Assembly (NCBI GenBank): GCA_964553835.1
Contig: CAZKMJ010000002.1
Location: forward strand, 1 to 35,085
Direction: 5' to 3'
Length of the DNA: 35,085 bases
Origin: an uncultured bacterium
Lineage (GTDB): Bacteria > Omnitrophota > Omnitrophia > Omnitrophales > Aquincolibacteriaceae
Shown: positions 2,264 to 8,279 of the stretch, piece by piece
Numbering within the stretch: position 1 is the stretch's first letter
How the letters are laid out: each line of letters opens with the position of its first letter
Notes under the pieces: model-generated
What the model was told of the DNA's origin: nothing
What the model saw: only the letters and a program-made list of their open reading frames with translations
Databases searched by the model: none
Program-made: the position numbers and the translations under genes

Positions 2264-3352
2264 ATGGATACAAATAAAAAGAAAATTCTTGTCGCTATGA
2301 GCGGCGGTGTCGACAGTTCTGTGGCCGCGGCCCTTTTGAAAGACCAGGGCCATGAAGTCGCTGGTGCGACTATACGCACGTGGGCTTCGGACAGCTGCGC
2401 GGATCTGAACACTCGTGCCTGTTGCGGGCTTTCGGGCGTGGAAGACGCGCGTGACGTGGCCGAATCGCTTGGCATCAAGTATTGGGTATTTAATTTTGAA
2501 AAAGATTTCAAGAAACACGTTGTCGATTATTTTGCGGCTGAATATCTGAAGGGCCGCACGCCCAATCCGTGCGTGGCCTGCAATGAACACATCAAGTTCC
2601 GGCTTTTTTTGAAACGCGCCCAAGAACTTGGCTTTGATGCTATTGCCACCGGGCATTATGCGCAGCTAGTGCATGATGAGCAGGGAAATATTGTGCTTTC
2701 AGAGGGCGTGGACGCGGGCAAGGACCAGTCCTACGTTCTTTTTCCTCTCGAAAAAGAAGTGCTGCGGAACCTTTATCTTCCCATCGGTGGTTTCACTAAA
2801 TCTGAAATTCGCGTGCGTGCCGCTGGCATGAAGCTTAAAGTCGCGGGCAAGCCGGACTCGCAGGAAATCTGCTTTATCCCAAGCAATGATTACAGCCAGT
2901 TCCTGAAAAAGGAATACAAGGAGGCTTCGCCGCGCAAAGGTATTATTCGCACCCGGGGCGGTGAAGTGCTGGGCGAGCATGAAGGTTTTTTTAATTATAC
3001 GCGCGGGCAGCGCCGGGGTCTTGGAGGTGGAAATTCCGAGCGCCTGTATGTGCTGGAAACCATTCCTGAAACTAATGAGGTCGTCGTAGGAACCCGTGAA
3101 GAAATTTTTGGCCTGAATTGCACAGTGGGCCGGTTTAACTGGTTCGCGCGTCCTGCCGAAAATGATTTCAAAGCGCATGTGAAGATCCGCTCCCAGCATC
3201 GCAAGGCCGCGGCTGAAGTCCGGGTCCTGGATGACCATTCTGTGGCGATTGAATTTGAAGAACCTCAGGACGCTATCACTCCAGGGCAGGGCGCTGTCAT
3301 TTACAATGGAAGCATGGTGCTTGGTGGAGGCTGGATCGATACGGTAAAATGA
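2264..3352 (+). CDS. mnmA: tRNA-specific 2-thiouridylase MnmA
   Basis: 362-aa ORF. PP-loop VAMSGGVDSSV, catalytic-Cys context NPCVACN, GKDQSY and QEICF motifs. Confidence 0.95.
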   Translation: MDTNKKKILVAMSGGVDSSVAAALLKDQGHEVAGATIRTWASDSCADLNTRACCGLSGVEDARDVAESLGIKYWVFNFEKDFKKHVVDYFAAEYLKGRTPNPCVACNEHIKFRLFLKRAQELGFDAIATGHYAQLVHDEQGNIVLSEGVDAGKDQSYVLFPLEKEVLRNLYLPIGGFTKSEIRVRAAGMKLKVAGKPDSQEICFIPSNDYSQFLKKEYKEASPRKGIIRTRGGEVLGEHEGFFNYTRGQRRGLGGGNSERLYVLETIPETNEVVVGTREEIFGLNCTVGRFNWFARPAENDFKAHVKIRSQHRKAAAEVRVLDDHSVAIEFEEPQDAITPGQGAVIYNGSMVLGGGWIDTVK

Positions 3353-4599
3353 AACTTTTAAAGCTCGAAAACAAAAAAGATATTTTCTTCCTCGTCTGGA
3401 CCATCCACCGTCCGTCCACTCCGCCTGCCAAAACCATTACTCCTCTCAAACAATTTTCCGGATTCGAAGCCGCGGCCTGCGTCAAAGAAGGTGACAAAGT
3501 TCTTTTGGGGCAGAAAATCGCTGAAGCCGGGCATGAAGACAACGTGGACTTGCATGCGCCTGTTTCAGGAAAAGTCTCCCGCGTTTTCAATGCTCAACAC
3601 CCCGTTTTTGGAAAATCGCAGGCCATCGAAATTATTTCAGACGGACTGGACGAAAAATGTCCGGGCTATGGTCTCGATCGAGTTTGGGAAAAATCAAAGC
3701 CACAAGAGTTGATCGAGCGTTTCCGAAGCATGGGCGTTGTGGACATGAATCTGAAAATGGAGCCTGTCCATAGCAAGCTGCGCAAAAAAAGCGGCTCCAT
3801 TATTTTGAATGCTTGCGAGTCCGACCCTTATCTTGCTTCAAATTATTCTTTGATCATGTCTCATCCACTCGAAGTGCTCAAAGGCGCCGATATCCTTCGA
3901 AGGGCAGCGGGAGCCGAAAAAATAGTGTTCGTCACGGAAAATGAAAAGCGTGAGGCGGCGGAGCTGGTTAAAAGCAAAATTTATTTTCTGAAATGGGAGC
4001 ATGCCGAAGCAGTCATGATTCCTTCCGGATACCCGGATGACGAAGCGTTGCTGGCCCGCCGCGCGGGCATAGAACAGGGCGTTGTGTTTGATCTGGCCAC
4101 TGCATTTGCCGCCTATGAAGCCGTTGCCCTGAACAAACCATTGATAGAAAGAGTCGTGACGGTCGCCGGGGAATGTGTCATGGAACCCAAAAATGTATGG
4201 GCCAGGACGGGGGCGGAATTTGGAGCCGTTGTTAAAACCTGTAAAGGTTTTATGCGGGAACCCCGTAAATTACTGATGGGCGGTCCCATGGGGGGCCGTG
4301 CCCAGACGCGCCTGGACGTTCCGGTAGTCGCGGGGACACAGGGTATCCTGGCACTTCCAAAGGAAGTCGCTAGACCTGAAGACCCGGAACCTTGTATCCG
4401 GTGCGGGCGCTGTATTGAGGTTTGTCCTGAAAATCTTTCGCCGGCGCTGATCAGCCTTGCGGCTGAAAACGACCTTTTTGCTCTGGCCAAGGATTATGGC
4501 GCGGACCTTTGCGTTGAATGCGGCAATTGTGCCTATGTTTGTCCGGCAAAACGTCCCATGACCGAGTTAATGCGTTATGCGGCGGGCGGACCGTCTTGA
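3349..4599 (+). CDS. rnfC: RnfC-like subunit (divergent; two 4Fe-4S motifs kept, Gly-rich nucleotide loop absent)
   Basis: 416-aa ORF. It is collinear with RnfC: HAPVSGKV, LNACESDPY (canonical INAAECEPY), ERVVTVAGE..P.NVWAR.G, MGGPMGG, LDVPVV, then CIRCGRCIEVCP and CVECGNCAYVCP. ATGA overlap with the mnmA stop. Confidence 0.8.
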   Translation: MKLLKLENKKDIFFLVWTIHRPSTPPAKTITPLKQFSGFEAAACVKEGDKVLLGQKIAEAGHEDNVDLHAPVSGKVSRVFNAQHPVFGKSQAIEIISDGLDEKCPGYGLDRVWEKSKPQELIERFRSMGVVDMNLKMEPVHSKLRKKSGSIILNACESDPYLASNYSLIMSHPLEVLKGADILRRAAGAEKIVFVTENEKREAAELVKSKIYFLKWEHAEAVMIPSGYPDDEALLARRAGIEQGVVFDLATAFAAYEAVALNKPLIERVVTVAGECVMEPKNVWARTGAEFGAVVKTCKGFMREPRKLLMGGPMGGRAQTRLDVPVVAGTQGILALPKEVARPEDPEPCIRCGRCIEVCPENLSPALISLAAENDLFALAKDYGADLCVECGNCAYVCPAKRPMTELMRYAAGGPS

Positions 4600-4653
4600 A
4601 ATTTGAGCTCAATACCTGTACCTTTTGAACAGAAACACTAACCACAGGAATTT

Positions 4654-5940
4654 ATGAAGCCCAATCCGTTTTTCTCCGGTTTTGTCTGCGGCGTTGCCCT
4701 GACTCTTGCTTCCATCATTGTCATTCTTACTTATAATAAGAATTACGCGCCGACAGTTCCTGCGAATCCGCTGATCCCGGAAACCGGCGCTATCCAGCTG
4801 GCCCAGGCCGGCGGAAGGGCCCTGAACCTGACCCCACCCACGCGTGGTCCGGTCACTGCTCCCGTAACGATCATTGATTATTCGGATTTCTACTGCGGCT
4901 TCTGCAAAAAAGTCATGCCTACACTGCTGCAGGTCACTAAAAATTATCCGGACAAGGTTAAACTTGTTTTCAAGCATCATCCATTGTCGCAGACACCCGG
5001 TCAGGGTTCGTATTTTGTTCATGAAGCGGCTGTCTGTGCGCATGAGCAGGCCAAGTTCTGGGAATTTTTTGAAGCTGCTTTCGCGTATTCCGGGCATCCG
5101 GATCCCGCCGCGGTACGGCAGATCGCATCTCAGATTGGTTTGAATTCTCAACTTTTTGAGGGCTGTTTGAAAACCGATCGGCCCAAAAAAGTGATCGAAG
5201 CAGATTTGCGCGAGGCGCAGTCACAGAAAGTGGATGGAACTCCTACTTTCTTCATCAACGGAGAAGTTCTTGCGGGCGCTTATCCTTATGAGACTTTCCA
5301 GTCTAAAATCGAATCGATTATAAACCCGAGGCAGGCGGGAACTGCGCCTGCAGCCGCGGCCGCGGCTGCTCCGAAGGCCGTTCCGCAAATCGCGCCTCAG
5401 CCGGTTCAGCGCGCGGAATTTAATGATTTGAAAGGCCGTCCCTCCCAGGGGCCTGAAAAAGCTCCTATTACCATTGTTCAGTTCAGTGATTTTCACTGCC
5501 CGTTTTGTGTGCGCGTAGAGCCGACCATGGACCAGATCATGAAAGAATATCAAGGTCAAGTGCGCAAGGTGTGGCGTCATTTTCCGTTGTCCATGCACAT
5601 CGGCGCGGACAGGACACATGTGGCCTCTGAATGCGCCAATAAACAGGGGAAATTCTGGGAATATCATGACAAGTTGTTTAAGAATTTTTCGGCGCCCAAG
5701 GACGATGGTCTTTACATTTCCATCGCTAAGGAAATCGGTTTGAAAGAGAAAGATTTTAAAAAATGTTTGAACGATGAGGGCATGCTGCAGCAGATCCGCG
5801 ACGACATAAGCGCGGGCTCCAAAGTTGGTGTCAGCGGAACGCCGGTGGCTTTTATCAATGGCCTCAAGTTGACTGGCGCCCAGCCTTTCACTTCCTTCAA
5901 GCGCGTGATTGACGACGAGCTTCAAAAAGCAAAAAAATGA
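4654..5940 (+). CDS. Membrane-anchored tandem DsbA-family thiol:disulfide oxidoreductase (two thioredoxin-fold domains)
   Basis: 428-aa ORF. N-terminal hydrophobic anchor FVCGVALTLASIIVILTY. Two paralogous DsbA-like domains with active sites YSDFYCGFCKK and FSDFHCPFCVR. Each domain ends in GTP.FFING / GTPVAFING (cis-Pro loop). The domains are joined by an Ala/Pro linker AGTAPAAAAAAAPKAVPQIAPQP. Confidence 0.85.
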   Translation: MKPNPFFSGFVCGVALTLASIIVILTYNKNYAPTVPANPLIPETGAIQLAQAGGRALNLTPPTRGPVTAPVTIIDYSDFYCGFCKKVMPTLLQVTKNYPDKVKLVFKHHPLSQTPGQGSYFVHEAAVCAHEQAKFWEFFEAAFAYSGHPDPAAVRQIASQIGLNSQLFEGCLKTDRPKKVIEADLREAQSQKVDGTPTFFINGEVLAGAYPYETFQSKIESIINPRQAGTAPAAAAAAAPKAVPQIAPQPVQRAEFNDLKGRPSQGPEKAPITIVQFSDFHCPFCVRVEPTMDQIMKEYQGQVRKVWRHFPLSMHIGADRTHVASECANKQGKFWEYHDKLFKNFSAPKDDGLYISIAKEIGLKEKDFKKCLNDEGMLQQIRDDISAGSKVGVSGTPVAFINGLKLTGAQPFTSFKRVIDDELQKAKK

Positions 5941-5946
5941 GGCTTC

Positions 5947-6780
5947 GTGAGCTACAGCTCCGGCGTCAATCCGCACATCCGCTCATCTGAAACAGTACAG
6001 AGCCTGACGTGGTCCATGGTCATGGCTCTTCTGCCCGCGGTTTTCGCGCATATTTTTTTCTTTCCAGCGCGGGCGGTGTTTCTGGTCCTTCTGCTTTTCA
6101 CAGCCTCCATTCTTGAGGAAATAACCTTTATCATTTTCCGCGACCTGCCGCTGAAAAAATATCAGGACTTCAAAAACGGCACCATTTTTCTTTACGCGCT
6201 TGTTTTCTTTATGATTGTGCCAGTTTCGCTGCCCATGTTTCCGGCCGCGGCGGGATTTGCATTTTCTCTTTTTTTCACGCGCTCGGTTTTCGGGGGGCAG
6301 GGCGCCGCGTTTTTTCATCCGGCACTTGCTGCGCTCATATTTTTAAGGGTCCTTTTTCAGGGCTCGGGATTTTTCCGGGCATATGCCTATCCGCCGTCTC
6401 TTTTTTCCTGGTCCGTGCGCGGGCTGCTTGCTTCCGGCGGGATTTATTTAATTTTCCGCAAAACTTTCCGGCCTCAGGTGCCTTTGGTTTTTCTCTTCTC
6501 GGTCTTTGGATTTTCACTTCTTTTTCAGCTTCCGCAGGATTCCGCGCACGCCGCGTTCTGGTTGTTGACCGGATTTTTCGCGGCGGTGGATTTTGGAACA
6601 GCGCCCATGCATGATTCGGGGCGTGTGATTTACGCTTTTTTATCCGGGCTTATCGCGGCTTTTCTTGAAAGCGGAGGCCTGGGAACCGGAACCGCGTGCG
6701 CATTCGCGGTTTTGACCGGAAATATCATGACGCCGTGGCTGGATATCGCGCGTGTTAAGAAAGCGCTGAACCATGTTTAA
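5947..6780 (+). CDS. rnfD: RnfD/NqrB-like polytopic membrane subunit, shortened (277 aa)
   Basis: GTG start. Matches RnfD landmarks by eye: N-terminal S..PHIRS, FGGQGAAFFHPALAA (canonical YGG.G.NPFNPAM), and C-terminal LLTG..AAVDFGTAP ... GTACAFAVLTGNIMTPWLD (canonical LLSGAT..TDPVT ... GVAFAVLLAN..VPLID). Confidence 0.75.
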   Translation: MSYSSGVNPHIRSSETVQSLTWSMVMALLPAVFAHIFFFPARAVFLVLLLFTASILEEITFIIFRDLPLKKYQDFKNGTIFLYALVFFMIVPVSLPMFPAAAGFAFSLFFTRSVFGGQGAAFFHPALAALIFLRVLFQGSGFFRAYAYPPSLFSWSVRGLLASGGIYLIFRKTFRPQVPLVFLFSVFGFSLLFQLPQDSAHAAFWLLTGFFAAVDFGTAPMHDSGRVIYAFLSGLIAAFLESGGLGTGTACAFAVLTGNIMTPWLDIARVKKALNHV

Positions 6781-7273
6781 AAAACTCATGCCCGGTTTAA
6801 AAATTTGTTTTTTTGTTTTGTATGTTACCGCCATTATTTCAGGCGTTGTTCTGTGCTACGGGCCTCGCAGCCAGAGGGGTTCACAACAGCTCCAGGAAGA
6901 CCTTAAAAAAATTCTGCCCCATTTTGACAACAAGCCCTGGGAAGAAACGTTTAATGTAGACGGGTTCCAGGTTTTTCCGGCACGCGCTGAACGCAAAGTA
7001 CAGTTTGAGGGTTCTGCGGAATCCGTTACAGCCAATGCCCTGAGCGGTTTCGCGGTCAAGGCACCCAAATACCGGGACAGCGAAGGTTTGAACCCCTTGA
7101 TCGCGGGTTTCGATCTGGAAGGCAACATCACAGGCATGCGCAATGTTTTTCACCGGCCGGGACTCGTGCCTGAAAATGAAATTTCTTCGGAAACCCGGTT
7201 TAAAGCCAAACTGTTTTTCGAACACAGGCGTTCTGTCATGTTGGAAAAAGCCAATGAAGGGGCCATGGCATGA
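6773..7273 (+). CDS. RnfG/NqrC-like subunit, truncated (166 aa)
   Basis: N-terminal TM helix ICFFVLYVTAIISGVVL. The stretch NPLIAGFDLEGNITGMRNVFHRPGL resembles the RnfG core (llvGid.dG.ItGv.vl.H.ETPGLG). Position after the rnfD-like gene matches rnfCDGEA order. 8-nt overlap with the upstream gene. Confidence 0.45.
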   Translation: MFKKLMPGLKICFFVLYVTAIISGVVLCYGPRSQRGSQQLQEDLKKILPHFDNKPWEETFNVDGFQVFPARAERKVQFEGSAESVTANALSGFAVKAPKYRDSEGLNPLIAGFDLEGNITGMRNVFHRPGLVPENEISSETRFKAKLFFEHRRSVMLEKANEGAMA

Positions 7274-7809
7274 AAAAGAGGGCCCCACTTCCTTCTTTCA
7301 TAGAAGCCGCGGCCCCGGTTTTTCCTCTTTGGACATTTCTTTTGCAGTGGGACGGCGCGCTGGAAACCGTTTTGGCTGCCGCAGTGGTTTATCTGGCTGT
7401 GTCCCTGCTTTTCGAACTGATCTCACCCGCGTTTCCAAAAAACCTGCTGGCGTTTGCCAAAGTTTTGACAGTTTGTTCCGCGGTCTATGCTCTGCCCGGT
7501 TTTTATGAAAATGCGCCGGCTATTGCCCTGAGTGTATGTCTTCTGGAATTTCCGCTGCAGAGCGTGAAAAAACGCGCGGGCAAAAGCCCCGCACTTGCCA
7601 AAATAATTTGTTTCGCGGGACTTGCGGTTTATCTGGCGGCCGCGCAGGAAATTCTGGGCCGCCAGTTCCATTGGCCGGTTTTTCAGCGTGTGCCCGGGAC
7701 TTTTTTCCTGCTTTCTCTTCCCGCGGTTTTGTGGCCAGTCAGCCGCAAAAGGGTCCGTGCTCTCCGCACGAGAATCAAAAAAGTTTCCCTGGGGGGCGCG
7801 CCCGCGTGA
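7270..7809 (+). CDS. Hydrophobic membrane protein in the RnfE/NqrD position (weak similarity)
   Basis: 179-aa ORF, multi-TM. AQEILGRQ and PGTFFLLSLPAVL faintly recall RnfE (LREIIGNG, PPGAFI.LGL). The assignment rests mostly on synteny. ATGA overlap upstream and GTGA overlap downstream. Confidence 0.4.
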   Translation: MKKRAPLPSFIEAAAPVFPLWTFLLQWDGALETVLAAAVVYLAVSLLFELISPAFPKNLLAFAKVLTVCSAVYALPGFYENAPAIALSVCLLEFPLQSVKKRAGKSPALAKIICFAGLAVYLAAAQEILGRQFHWPVFQRVPGTFFLLSLPAVLWPVSRKRVRALRTRIKKVSLGGAPA

Positions 7810-8279
7810 ACACATTATTTTTTTCCGCGGCAGCTTTCGCGTTCCTCTTTTCCATTGAACGTGAAAAAACAAGCATGGCCAAGGTTCTGGAAGAAACTTT
7901 TATGGTTTTTTCCTGCGTTGCCCTGATTGCGGCCACGGGATTAAAAAATGATTTAGCGGTTTGGATAATTCCGGCTGTCTTTGCCGCTTGTTCGCTTGCC
8001 TGCAAACCTTTGATTTTTTTTGCCGCGATCTGCGGACTTTCCTTTTCTTTTCTGGAAACCGCGCCTTATGTCACTCACTTGTCGGGAATTCTGCAGTCCG
8101 CGGTGCTTTTCGCGGGTCTGAGGATCTTTGTGGAGGGGTTCCGGCAAAGGGGGCTGTTTTTCCGGCCGCCCTCGCGCTTCGCGGGCATCCCGGCCCTTTT
8201 GATGCAGGCTTTCTGGGCCTCTTTATTTTTATCTGCATGGCTGCTTTTGCCTTATTGGTCGCGGCCTGCGGGCATTTAA
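7806..8279 (+). CDS. Hydrophobic membrane protein in the RnfA/NqrE position (RnfA-like C-terminus)
   Basis: In-frame GTG at 7806 inside track ORF 7536..8279; the first 90 codons of that ORF overlap the previous gene. The C-terminal ILQSAVLFAGLRIFVEGFRQRG..PPSRFAGIPALLMQAFWASLFLS parallels RnfA [35 protein letters not shown]. Confidence 0.5.
   Translation: MNTLFFSAAAFAFLFSIEREKTSMAKVLEETFMVFSCVALIAATGLKNDLAVWIIPAVFAACSLACKPLIFFAAICGLSFSFLETAPYVTHLSGILQSAVLFAGLRIFVEGFRQRGLFFRPPSRFAGIPALLMQAFWASLFLSAWLLLPYWSRPAGI

What the first reader, a model, noticed from the sequence alone, without database searches (positions are those of the whole stretch)
5947..6780. RnfD-like subunit is missing the loop that carries the covalent-FMN threonine
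The 277-aa protein aligns by eye to both ends of RnfD (FGGQGAAFFHPALAA, and ...AFAVLTGNIMTPWLD). The central segment is the exception. In E. coli/V. cholerae RnfD it holds the flavinylated Thr187, in ..DGISQAT.. (S/T-G/Q-A-T context).

Here that segment collapses to about 15 residues (GSGFFRAYAYPPSLF, nt ~6352-6411). I find no [ST]-G-A-[ST]-like motif anywhere in the protein. ApbE-dependent flavinylation of RnfD/NqrB is established knowledge, so its absence implies a flavin-free D subunit.
Basis: partly seen in the sequence, partly recalled or inferred. Interest (0 to 1): 0.6.

Follow-up and report, generated by a model that had tools for sequence, protein, structure and literature searches.

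The report
RnfD without its covalent-flavin loop
This gene is a real, conserved, shortened RnfD membrane subunit that has lost the loop and pocket for covalently bound FMN, and it sits in a cofactor-stripped remnant of the Rnf redox pump kept across one order of Omnitrophota, so the "Rnf complex" annotated there is very unlikely to be the textbook ferredoxin:NAD+ ion pump.

Summary
ORF 5947-6780 (277 aa) is an RnfD/NqrB-family protein that keeps all ten membrane helices. Its helix V-VI linker is 15 residues, against about 50 in solved RnfD structures, where that linker carries the FMN-threonine. No flavinylation motif exists anywhere in the protein, and the other FMN-pocket residues are also replaced.

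This is not an artefact. Within this Omnitrophota order, 63 sampled genomes carry the degenerate form at a syntenic locus. One genome (G029) and all 56 hits elsewhere in the phylum keep a canonical RnfD. ApbE is found in 57/57 genomes with canonical RnfD, in 12/63 with degenerate RnfD, and not in this genome.

The rest of the operon is stripped in the same way:
- RnfC lacks the NADH/FMN loop.
- The RnfG-like protein stops before its threonine.
- The RnfE/A-like proteins have no conserved cysteines.
- There is no RnfB.

What is still conserved:
- the two [4Fe-4S] motifs of RnfC;
- RnfD's RnfC-docking arm;
- RnfD's cytoplasmic loops, including the riboflavin-pocket aspartate.

The likeliest reading is an RnfC-RnfD core acting at the cytoplasmic face, without electron transfer across the membrane. 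Methanosarcinales RnfD lost the same site independently. I rate it a new variant of a known kind.

The parts
3349..4599 (+). rnfC-like gene (416 aa). It keeps two CxxCxxCxxxCP [4Fe-4S] motifs but lacks the Gly-rich NADH/FMN loop.
   Evidence: TIGR01945 scores 288 bits, above its cut-off. In an alignment to G029 RnfC the window reads VVDMNLKMEPVH where G029 reads VVGMGGAMFPAH. Both FeS motifs are kept in 29/30 relatives, and the Gly loop only in G029.
4654..5940 (+). Membrane-anchored tandem DsbA/thioredoxin protein (CGFC, CPFC) inserted between rnfC and rnfD.
   Evidence: Pfam Thioredoxin_4/DSBA matches twice, and NCBIfam matches the Rcas_1661 family. It is present in about half of the related loci and absent in the others.
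5947..6780 (+). rnfD-short: 277-aa RnfD/NqrB-family membrane protein, the subject of the finding.
   Evidence: PF03116 E 4e-39. TIGR01946 scores 109.5 bits, below its cut-off of 207. AF2 pLDDT 90.9 with ten TM helices. Foldseek hits RnfD at TM 0.78-0.80.
5971..5982 (+). N-terminal P-H-I-R arm, residues 9-12. In solved Rnf structures this arm is buried inside RnfC.
   Evidence: P9 is kept in 75/78 short forms and H10 in 68/78. The role of the arm is taken from PMC9588780.
6289..6333 (+). Cytoplasmic loop IV-V and start of helix V, FGGQGAAFFHPALAA. The riboflavin-ligand Asn is His124 here.
   Evidence: G116 and G117 are kept in 76 and 75 of 78 short forms. Position 124 is N in 44/44 canonical forms, and H in 42 and N in 26 of the short forms.
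6355..6399 (+). Residual helix V-VI linker, residues 137-151 (FQGSGFFRAYAYPPS). It replaces the ~50-residue five-helix linker that carries the FMN-threonine.
6583..6606 (+). Cytoplasmic loop VIII-IX, AVDFGTAP. Asp215 corresponds to Asp248 (C. tetanomorphum) and Asp249 (A. woodii), the riboflavin/Na+ site residue.
   Evidence: D is kept in 69/78 short forms and P220 in 77/78. The role is taken from PMC9588780 and bioRxiv 10.1101/2024.06.21.599731.
6721..6744 (+). End of helix X and the C-terminal arm, NIMTPWLD. [quoted passage not shown]
   Evidence: N259 is kept in 62/78, P263 in 73/78 and D266 in 72/78 short forms.
6773..7273 (+). rnfG-like gene (166 aa): TM anchor plus the first half of the FMN_bind fold. 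It ends before the S-G-A-T flavinylation site.
   Evidence: TIGR01947 E 0.006, residues 31-131 matched to model positions 25-124 of 187. hhalign against G029 RnfG gives 91%, E 1e-6, over columns 3-128 of 206 only.
7270..7809 (+). rnfE-like membrane protein (179 aa) without the [2Fe-2S] cysteines.
   Evidence: An iterated profile reaches G029 RnfE. hhalign gives 56%, E 1e-4, which is a weak link. No column has 30% or more Cys.
7806..8279 (+). rnfA-like membrane protein (about 157 aa, GTG start overlapping the preceding stop) without the [2Fe-2S] cysteines.
   Evidence: hhalign against G029 RnfA gives 96.9%, E 1.5e-10, over the C-terminal 73 columns. No Cys is conserved. The start is inferred from conservation with G003.

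Best explanation
The gene is the vertically inherited ortholog of RnfD in an order of Candidatus Omnitrophota.

Shown:
- The periplasm-facing FMN station of RnfD has been dismantled. The five-helix linker with the acceptor threonine is deleted, the residues lining the FMN pocket are replaced, and the flavin transferase ApbE is absent.
- The same lineage has lost every other station of the U-shaped Rnf electron path: the NADH/FMN loop of RnfC, the FMN-threonine of RnfG, the [2Fe-2S] cysteines of RnfA/E, and the RnfB gene.
- The complex therefore cannot move electrons across the membrane and back, and cannot be a ferredoxin:NAD+ ion pump.
- Selection still preserves the two [4Fe-4S] motifs of RnfC and the cytoplasmic face of RnfD. 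On RnfD this means the N-terminal PHIR arm and the C-terminal arm that clamp RnfC, the FGG.G loop, and the Asp of the riboflavin pocket.
- In some genomes only rnfC and rnfD remain, and in one they are fused.

Inferred: RnfD-short works as the membrane anchor and partner of an iron-sulfur RnfC. It may still hold a non-covalent riboflavin about 12 A from the proximal cluster. The two would form a redox unit confined to the cytoplasmic face of the membrane.

The donor and acceptor are unknown. A ferredoxin-type donor and the menaquinone pool are candidates, because the genome encodes MqnP/UbiX/UbiD-type menaquinone genes and VKOR.
For: Loss of the site itself:
- Linker and motif are absent.
- The G029 motif threonine aligns to Thr153 of 7zc6_D.
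- Pocket residues, canonical versus short: R130 44/44 vs 18/78; G203 and G204 44/44 vs 25 and 18 of 78; E249 and G250 41 and 42 of 44 vs variable.

Cytoplasmic motifs are kept. Conservation falls more in the periplasmic half (0.237) than in the cytoplasmic half (0.146), p = 0.002.

Missing partners in this genome:
- No ApbE, FMN_bind or Rnf-Nqr family hit.
- tblastn with same-order RnfG/E/A/B and ApbE finds nothing.

Distribution:
- PF03116 scores are 276 bits or less in 63 genomes of the order. They are 333 bits or more in 55 of the 56 hits elsewhere in the phylum (G108, whose match is split in two, is the exception), and 378 bits in G029.
- ApbE is present in 57/57 genomes with canonical RnfD and in 12/63 with degenerate RnfD.

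Origin:
- The synteny MnmA-RnfC-(DsbA)-RnfD-...-PilT is shared with canonical G029.
- G029 RnfD groups with same-class outgroups.

RnfC:
- FeS motifs are kept in 29/30 relatives, and the Gly loop only in G029.

C-D as the retained core:
- C-D-only loci exist.
- G035 carries a C-D fusion.

Residual constraint: between congeners, pN 0.41 against pS 0.72.

Quinone genes are present.
Against:
- Riboflavin binding is only an inference from one conserved Asp. The second ligand, Asn, is His here, and N123A abolishes activity in A. woodii.
- RnfD is among the fastest-evolving genes of the locus: 42% identity between congeners, against 95% for PilT and 68% for RnfC. A purely structural or nearly dispensable role would fit this.
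- No quinone site is identifiable.
- The G/E/A-like genes are still kept in many genomes without any recognisable cofactor site. The C-D core model does not explain this.
Confidence: 0.7

Rival explanations
1. Non-redox remnant. RnfD-short, which has an Amt/urea-transporter-like fold, has been re-used as an ion or solute channel, or is only a membrane scaffold. The RnfC clusters would then be structural or regulatory.
For: - RnfD and the G-like gene evolve fastest in the locus.
- Every periplasmic cofactor site is gone.
- More distant fold matches are to AmtB and urea transporters.
- The FMN and linker that plug the outer half-channel in canonical RnfD are absent (PMC9588780).
Against: - All eight cluster cysteines of RnfC are kept in 29/30 genomes.
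- The riboflavin-pocket Asp and the RnfC-docking arms are the best-conserved parts of RnfD-short.
- The putative Na+ path residue Asn90 is lost.
Confidence: 0.17
2. Outward electron route to a periplasmic thiol protein. By analogy with cytochrome-linked Rnf variants, the complex would pass electrons between the cytoplasm and the operon-encoded tandem DsbA-like protein.
For: - A membrane-anchored double-CxxC thioredoxin gene lies between rnfC and rnfD.
- Methanosarcinales Rnf, whose C and D subunits also lack flavin sites, hands electrons to a periplasmic cytochrome (PMC12174285).
Against: - No cofactor or conserved cysteine pair spans the membrane in the D, G-, E- or A-like proteins.
- The DsbA gene is missing from about half of the related loci.
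- The genome has VKOR, the normal DsbA oxidant.
Confidence: 0.06
3. Genes in slow decay with no remaining function.
For: - There is a progressive series of losses across the order: intermediate linkers, loss of G/E/A, and C-D only.
- dN is high.
- One relative (G037) has an in-frame TGA in the RnfD match.
Against: - Open frames are intact in 63 sampled genomes at 25-45% identity.
- The same cytoplasmic motifs stay near-invariant.
- pN is well below pS.
- Translational coupling is preserved.
- The AF2 model is confident.
Confidence: 0.05
4. Still a working ferredoxin:NAD+ Rnf pump, either with flavin attached at a non-canonical site or bound non-covalently, or the short ORF is an assembly or frameshift artefact.
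For: Published Omnitrophota reconstructions annotate a conserved Rnf complex (PMC10066038, PMC8542988).
Against: - There is no motif, no ApbE and no RnfB.
- There is no NADH loop in RnfC, no Thr in RnfG and no Cys in RnfA/E.
- The short form is reproduced in many independent assemblies.
Confidence: 0.02

Closest known systems
Canonical RnfD of the RnfABCDGE ferredoxin:NAD+ oxidoreductase (PDB 7ZC6 C. tetanomorphum, 9ERI A. woodii, 8AHX A. vinelandii; TIGR01946)
   Same: - Same family and ten-helix fold.
- Same N- and C-terminal arms that bind RnfC, the same FGG.G...PA loop, and the same Asp of the riboflavin pocket.
- Same operon position after rnfC.
- Orthologous locus to the canonical rnfCDGEAB of a same-order genome.
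   Different: - The five-helix linker is cut from about 50 to 15 residues, and the FMN-threonine is absent.
- Arg130, the Gly-Gly of helix VIII and the Glu-Gly before helix X are replaced, and Asn124 is His.
- It scores 109.5 bits against a cut-off of 207.
- The partner subunits lack their cofactor sites, RnfB is missing, and ApbE is missing.
Methanosarcinales-type Rnf (NCBIfam NF041838 rnfD_Methano and NF041837 rnfC_Methano; M. acetivorans Rnf-MmcA complex)
   Same: - RnfD is about 285 aa with a short V-VI linker that lacks D-x-x-T-x-A-T-P-L. Arg130 is replaced, and Methanosarcina itself also reads F-H-P-A.
- Its RnfC likewise lacks the G.GGA.FP loop and does not use NAD (PMC4023990).
- A functional Na+-translocating Rnf therefore exists whose C and D subunits have no recognisable FMN sites.
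   Different: - The loss is independent. The archaeal proteins form their own clade with 100% support, away from the Omnitrophota forms.
- The window protein scores 92 bits against a cut-off of 400.
- Methanosarcinales keep a flavinylated RnfG, cysteine-bearing RnfA/E, RnfB, ApbE and a multihaem cytochrome. All of these are absent here.
Two-subunit Nqr/Rnf-like flavinylation-associated complex (Meheust et al. 2021, PMC8238504; Huang et al. 2024, bioRxiv 10.1101/2024.03.13.584918)
   Same: It has an NqrB/RnfD-like membrane subunit whose flavinylation threonine is not conserved.
   Different: - That subunit is fused to a cytosolic NAD-binding domain.
- It pairs with a flavinylated RnfG-like protein and ApbE.
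- Here there is no NAD domain, no flavinylated partner and no ApbE. The partner is an RnfC-type Fe-S protein.
Cytochrome-linked Rnf2 of Desulfobacterales, and NQR variants with a short NqrB
   Same: They are reported to lack the NADH/FMN site of RnfC and the FMN-threonine of RnfD/NqrB.
   Different: They are reported to come with a periplasmic cytochrome c and otherwise intact G/A/E/B subunits. No CxxCH motif occurs in this operon.

Membership tests
PF03116 NQR2_RnfD_RnfE (RnfD/NqrB fold family) | Profile score above the gathering threshold | tested here: met
   135.2 bits against a cut-off of 27.7, E 4e-39, covering 5-293 of 296 model positions.
PF03116 NQR2_RnfD_RnfE (RnfD/NqrB fold family) | Ten-helix inverted-repeat membrane fold | tested here: met
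   AF2 pLDDT 90.9 with ten TM helices. Foldseek best hits are 8rbq_D, 9eri_D and 7zc6_D at TM 0.78-0.80.
Canonical RnfD (TIGR01946; subunit of the Fd:NAD+ Rnf pump) | Score above the curated cut-off | tested here: not met
   109.5 bits against a cut-off of 207.05, matched in two stretches.
Canonical RnfD (TIGR01946; subunit of the Fd:NAD+ Rnf pump) | FMN-acceptor Thr in D-x-x-[ST]-x-A-T-P-L within a ~50-residue helix V-VI linker | tested here: not met
   The linker is 15 residues and no motif exists in the protein. The reference Thr153 was mapped through G029.
Canonical RnfD (TIGR01946; subunit of the Fd:NAD+ Rnf pump) | FMN-pocket residues (Arg130, Gly236/237, Glu-Gly before helix X, Ser284) | tested here: not met
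   They read Leu130, Ala203/Phe204, Thr249/Ala250 and Ala here. As a group they are lost in the 78 short forms but invariant in the 44 canonical forms.
Canonical RnfD (TIGR01946; subunit of the Fd:NAD+ Rnf pump) | Riboflavin ligands Asn124 and Asp248 (C. tetanomorphum numbering) | tested here: inconclusive
   The Asp is kept (Asp215; 69/78 short forms). The Asn is His here (H in 42 and N in 26 of 78). Binding itself cannot be tested in silico.
Canonical RnfD (TIGR01946; subunit of the Fd:NAD+ Rnf pump) | Partners: flavinylated RnfG, Cys-bearing RnfA/E, RnfB, NADH/FMN-binding RnfC, and ApbE in the genome | tested here: not met
Canonical RnfD (TIGR01946; subunit of the Fd:NAD+ Rnf pump) | N-terminal arm that docks into RnfC | tested here: met
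   The P-H-I-R motif at residues 9-12 is conserved (P in 75/78, H in 68/78). A natural RnfC-RnfD fusion exists in G035. Physical binding was not tested.
Methanosarcinales-type RnfD (NF041838) | Score above the curated cut-off and membership of the clade | tested here: not met
   92.4 bits against a cut-off of 400. Methanosarcinales form a separate clade with 100% support.
Methanosarcinales-type RnfD (NF041838) | Short V-VI linker without the flavinylation motif | tested here: met
   The query aligns to the 285-position model in a single stretch. Methanosarcina sequences were read directly.
Two-subunit Nqr/Rnf-like complex (Meheust 2021) | RnfD-like domain fused to a C-terminal NAD-binding domain, with a flavinylated RnfG-like partner and ApbE | tested here: not met
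   The 277-aa protein has a single domain. The G-like partner lacks the site. There is no ApbE.

The most novel reading that the evidence does not exclude
The RnfC-RnfD pair is the only part retained everywhere in the order, and it is sometimes fused. It may be a previously unrecognised, self-sufficient membrane redox module derived from Rnf. In this reading, two [4Fe-4S] clusters feed a riboflavin buried in a ten-helix anchor. Electrons are then exchanged with the menaquinone pool or another membrane carrier, without crossing the membrane and without pumping ions. That would be a minimal ferredoxin-type:quinone oxidoreductase that reinvents the riboflavin-to-quinone end of Na+-NQR.
Probability: 0.2. 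Interest if true: 0.75.

Novelty: new variant of a known kind. Interest (0 to 1): 0.55.

Why it matters
**Metabolic reconstructions.** Published reconstructions of Omnitrophota count a "conserved Rnf complex" as the link between ferredoxin, NAD+ and the ion gradient (PMC10066038, PMC8542988). For this whole order that assignment rests on annotation of genes whose cofactor sites are gone, so the energy budget of these bacteria needs another explanation.

**Rnf/NQR mechanism.** The series offers a natural dissection of which parts of RnfD are tied to which cofactor. It runs from canonical G029, through intermediate linkers and the full deletion, to C-D-only loci and a C-D fusion. The independent loss in Methanosarcinales points the same way. 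It suggests that the RnfC-RnfD half can be kept for a role separate from the pumping half.

**Annotation.** A hit to PF03116 or "RnfD" does not establish a flavinylated subunit. A check for the A-T-P-L threonine and for ApbE would separate the classes.

Tried and rejected
Searches and tools that did not help:
- The search for related loci in genome contigs with P0001 found no relative.
- Word-indexed search for homologous proteins gave only 2 hits for the protein and 21 for the profile. It was of little use for distribution.
- The look-up of encoding contigs for canonical-looking but linker-less proteins (P0142, P0095) returned only ~1-kb contigs without context. Whether these are real or mis-assembled stays open.

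Analyses that were inconclusive:
- dN/dS between congeners was uninformative because dS is saturated. Only pN against pS and relative dN were used.
- The RnfD tree could not be rooted reliably, and many degenerate rows are long branches. I did not use it to count the number of losses inside the order.

Ideas considered and rejected:
- In-situ replacement by horizontal transfer as the origin of G029's canonical operon. This was rejected because G029 RnfD is 64% identical to, and clusters with, same-class Omnitrophota.
- The "SGTF" string proposed as a flavin motif for M. acetivorans RnfD (PMC4023990). In the Methanosarcina sequences read here, the similar strings (FTGSY, ITGTF) lie in the segment that aligns to canonical helix VIII, not in the linker. 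This placement is by eye.
- A haem route. No CxxCH motif occurs in any operon protein.
Full report
**What is at the coordinates**

The ORF at 5947-6780 (+) starts with GTG and encodes 277 residues. A GAGG lies 6 nt upstream and overlaps the stop of the preceding gene.
- It matches Pfam PF03116 (NQR2_RnfD_RnfE) at E 4e-39 over nearly the whole model.
- It scores only 109.5 bits against NCBIfam TIGR01946 rnfD, whose cut-off is 207, and in two stretches.
- Against PDB sequences it aligns to RnfD of A. woodii and C. tetanomorphum in two blocks: query 3-134 to 7-134, and query 161-266 to 191-298 of 7zc6_D. The segment between them is about 30 residues shorter than in the solved proteins.
- An AlphaFold2 model built on 54 short-form homologs is confident (pLDDT 90.9, pTM 0.90). 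It keeps all ten membrane helices and joins helices V and VI by residues 137-151 alone.
- Foldseek returns RnfD chains first (TM 0.78-0.80), then NqrB, then far more weakly AmtB and urea transporters.

No flavinylation-like string occurs anywhere in the protein.

**What exactly is missing**

In C. tetanomorphum RnfD the FMN is bound to Thr153, inside a "five-helix linker" (residues 140-190) that covers the flavin. The isoalloxazine is lined by Arg130, Glu185, Gly237 and Ser284. A second, non-covalent riboflavin sits on the cytoplasmic side next to Asn124 and the strictly conserved Asp248 (PMC9588780). In A. woodii the equivalents are Thr156, Asn123 and Asp249, and N123A or D249A abolishes activity (bioRxiv 10.1101/2024.06.21.599731).

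The canonical RnfD of a same-order genome (G029) aligns end to end with 7zc6_D at E 1e-86. The last T of its DAMTTAT string falls on Thr153.

In the window protein:
- the linker is deleted;
- Arg130 is Leu;
- the Gly-Gly of helix VIII is Ala-Phe;
- the Glu-Gly before helix X is Thr-Ala;
- Ser284 is Ala and Asn90 is Ile;
- Asn124 is His;
- Asp248 is kept, as Asp215.

I compared 78 short forms with 44 canonical forms.

| Position (window numbering) | Canonical | Short forms |
|---|---|---|
| R130 | 44/44 | 18/78 |
| G203 / G204 | 44/44 each | 25 / 18 of 78 |
| E249 / G250 | 41 / 42 of 44 | variable |
| P9 | 44/44 | 75/78 |
| H10 | 42/44 | 68/78 |
| G116 / G117 | 44/44 each | 76 / 75 of 78 |
| P125 | 44/44 | 72/78 |
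| D215 | 43/44 | 69/78 |
| P220 | 43/44 | 77/78 |
| N259 | 43/44 | 62/78 |
| P263 | 42/44 | 73/78 |

The periplasm-side residues are lost as a group, while the cytoplasmic motifs stay. Using the model's topology, conservation falls by 0.237 in the periplasmic half and by 0.146 in the cytoplasmic half (Mann-Whitney p = 0.002).

**The surroundings**

The gene lies in a translationally coupled row.

| Gene | Coordinates |
|---|---|
| rnfC-like | 3349-4599 |
| tandem DsbA-like | 4654-5940 |
| rnfD-short | 5947-6780 |
| rnfG-like | 6773-7273 |
| rnfE-like | 7270-7809 |
| rnfA-like | 7806-8279 |

pilT follows the row.

- RnfC: aligned to G029 RnfC it reads VVDMNLKMEPVH where G029 has VVGMGGAMFPAH. 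It also lacks two further loops of the nucleotide/flavin domain, but keeps both CxxCxxCxxxCP motifs.
- G-like protein: it matches RnfG only over the membrane anchor and the first half of the FMN_bind fold. The evidence is TIGR01947 positions 25-124 of 187, and hhalign to G029 RnfG at 91%, E 1e-6, over columns 3-128 of 206. It ends before the S-G-A-T site.
- E- and A-like proteins: iterated profiles and hhalign link them to G029 RnfE and RnfA (A: 96.9%, E 1.5e-10; E: 56%, E 1e-4, which is weak). Neither alignment has a column with 30% or more cysteine, so the ligands of the [2Fe-2S] cluster are gone.
- There is no rnfB, and no CxxCH motif in any operon protein.

The genome is 94.8% complete. 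It has a single PF03116 gene and no ApbE, FMN_bind or Rnf-Nqr family match. tblastn of the whole assembly with G029's RnfG, RnfE, RnfA and RnfB, and with two same-order ApbE proteins, finds nothing at E 0.01 or below.

**Distribution and origin**

PilT-syntenic contigs identify the lineage as Candidatus Omnitrophota.
- In 33 related genomes the order MnmA-RnfC-(DsbA)-RnfD-(G/E/A-like)-PilT is conserved.
- Only G029 keeps DAMTTATPLA...GNVSGSLGETS, canonical RnfA/E (PF02508, E 1e-71) and RnfB at that locus.
- Several genomes (G019, G006, G013, G032, G011, G007) keep linkers of intermediate length without the threonine. The window's genus has the fullest deletion.
- Four genomes (G032, G017, G037, G031) and an NCBI MAG keep little or nothing between rnfD and the next gene. 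G035 encodes RnfC and RnfD as one 680-aa frame, and G017 appears to fuse RnfD to an A-like tail.

In a sample of 151 genomes of the phylum, PF03116 scores are cleanly bimodal:
- 63 genomes of the order score 276 bits or less;
- G029 scores 378 bits;
- all 56 hits outside the order score 333 bits or more, apart from one split match.

Six outgroup loci are complete rnfCDGEAB operons with the A-T-P-L threonine. G029 RnfD is 64% identical to, and clusters with, same-class outgroups (98% SH-aLRT). The canonical state is therefore ancestral, and the degenerate state is derived within the order.

ApbE is present in 57/57 genomes with canonical RnfD and in 12/63 with degenerate RnfD. Both RnfC [4Fe-4S] motifs survive in 29/30 relatives. 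The one exception is G002, whose listed frame of 367 aa starts close to the contig end. The Gly-rich loop survives only in G029.

**Constraint**

Amino-acid identity between the window genome and its congener G003:

| Protein | Identity |
|---|---|
| PilT | 95% |
| MnmA | 86% |
| RnfC | 68% |
| DsbA-like | 61% |
| A-like | 58% |
| E-like | 53% |
| RnfD | 42% |
| G-like | 39% |

dS is saturated, so dN/dS is not usable. For RnfD, pN is 0.41 against pS 0.72. RnfD-short is thus strongly relaxed but not neutral. This fits a protein that kept one interface and lost the rest of its job.

**How it most likely works**

Shown:
- The FMN station of RnfD is gone, and so is every other station of the canonical path. 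That path runs from Fd through RnfB, the [2Fe-2S] of RnfA/E, FMN on RnfG, FMN on RnfD, riboflavin and the RnfC clusters to FMN on RnfC and NAD+ (PMC12174285).
- Transmembrane electron transfer and NAD(H) coupling are therefore excluded, and with them the known pumping mechanisms.

Inferred:
- Selection retains the RnfC clusters, the arms of RnfD that clamp RnfC, and the cytoplasmic pocket with Asp215. The functional unit is therefore an RnfC-RnfD core acting at the cytoplasmic face, possibly with riboflavin as the last cofactor.
- Donor and acceptor are unknown. The genome encodes VKOR, a cluster of an MqnP-like prenyltransferase with UbiX and a UbiD-type menaquinone decarboxylase, and haem o synthase. 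A quinone pool is therefore plausible, and a riboflavin-to-quinone step as in Na+-NQR is conceivable. No quinone site was identified.
- The persistence of cofactor-less G/E/A-like genes in many genomes is not explained.

**Comparison with what is known**

1. Two-subunit Nqr/Rnf-like complexes have an RnfD-like subunit without the threonine. That subunit is fused to an NAD-binding domain and works with a flavinylated RnfG-like protein and ApbE.
2. Methanosarcinales RnfD was retrieved here through RnfB peptides printed in the supplement of PMC4023990.
   - It is about 285 aa, lacks the motif and the first half of the linker, and has Trp at the Arg130 position. In Methanosarcina it reads FHPA.
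   - Its RnfC lacks the Gly loop as well.
   - All short forms align to NF041838 in one stretch, but none reaches its cut-off. The archaeal proteins form their own clade (100%), so the loss was independent.
   - That complex is a functional Na+-translocating enzyme that hands electrons to a cytochrome (PMC12174285). It keeps G, A/E, B and ApbE.
3. Earlier notes of this scan report cytochrome-linked Rnf2 of Desulfobacterales and NQR variants with the same loss. I did not check them.
4. Sporadic losses also occur elsewhere. One example is a 292-aa RnfD that appears, by eye against a close 307-aa relative, to lack the motif, inside a complete rnfCDGEAB-apbE operon.

None of these combines loss of all flavin and [2Fe-2S] sites with loss of RnfB and ApbE. 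The papers I found treat the Omnitrophota genes as a standard Rnf.

**Verdict**

The feature is a new variant of a known kind: a lineage-wide, cofactor-stripped Rnf remnant whose conserved core is RnfC plus an FMN-less RnfD.

Confidence that it lacks covalent FMN and is not a Fd:NAD+ pump is high. Confidence in the cytoplasmic-face redox role is moderate. Interest is 0.55.

Noticed in passing
L021 (G035:C15) 3783-5825: RnfC and RnfD are encoded as one 680-aa open frame. The RnfC C-terminus runs directly into the A-P-H-I-R arm of RnfD. This is a natural fusion of the two subunits that are retained everywhere in the order.
   Followed up: partly
L036 (G017:C36) 4923-6251: The RnfD frame is 442 aa. 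Its extra C-terminal ~140 residues resemble the C-terminal motif of the RnfA-like proteins (F-P-P-P...R-F-A), which suggests a D-A fusion. No separate G/E/A genes lie before pilT.
   Followed up: no
L082-L119 (Methanosarcinales rnf loci), e.g. L082 3889-4746: Methanosarcina, ANME-2, ANME-3 and Methanoperedens RnfD lack the canonical D-x-x-T-x-A-T-P-L site and Arg130. Methanosarcina RnfC lacks the G.GGA.FP loop. The literature proposes an SGTF string as a flavin motif in M. acetivorans RnfD. In these sequences the similar strings appear, by eye, to lie in a membrane helix.
   Followed up: partly
L071/L072 6001-6879 (NCBI MAGs CBDPUH01, CBDQDA01): A 292-aa RnfD appears, by eye against a close 307-aa relative, to have the motif-bearing part of the linker deleted. 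It sits in an otherwise complete rnfCDGEAB operon with apbE two genes downstream. Loss of the RnfD threonine may therefore also occur in apparently functional complexes.
   Followed up: no
L069 (NCBI MAG JAUNPN010000117.1) 139-2284: An rnfC plus short rnfD pair stands alone and is followed by a convergent 2028-aa pectinesterase-domain protein. This is another C-D-only module outside the sampled relatives.
   Followed up: no
window 4654-5940, and the DsbA-like genes in L016, L034, L039, L044, L045: The DsbA/thioredoxin gene between rnfC and rnfD varies from 249 to 964 aa among relatives and is absent in about half of them. This suggests a variable number of tandem thioredoxin domains.
   Followed up: no
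G000:C51:4281-4640; G000:C82 (L074); G000:C171 (L073): This genome encodes VKOR, a cluster of an MqnP-like prenyltransferase with UbiX and a UbiD-type menaquinone decarboxylase, and haem o synthase. A quinone pool, and possibly haem-copper oxidase biogenesis, is therefore likely in a phylum usually described as fermentative.
   Followed up: partly
G037:C76:6662-7015: The C-terminal half of the RnfD match in this relative contains an in-frame TGA. This may be a true pseudogene in one member of the order.
   Followed up: no
window 6773-6780, 7270-7273, 7806-7809: Start and stop codons overlap at each junction from rnfD to the rnfA-like gene (ATG/GTG overlapping TGA/TAA). Translational coupling is thus preserved despite the loss of cofactor sites.
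   Followed up: partly
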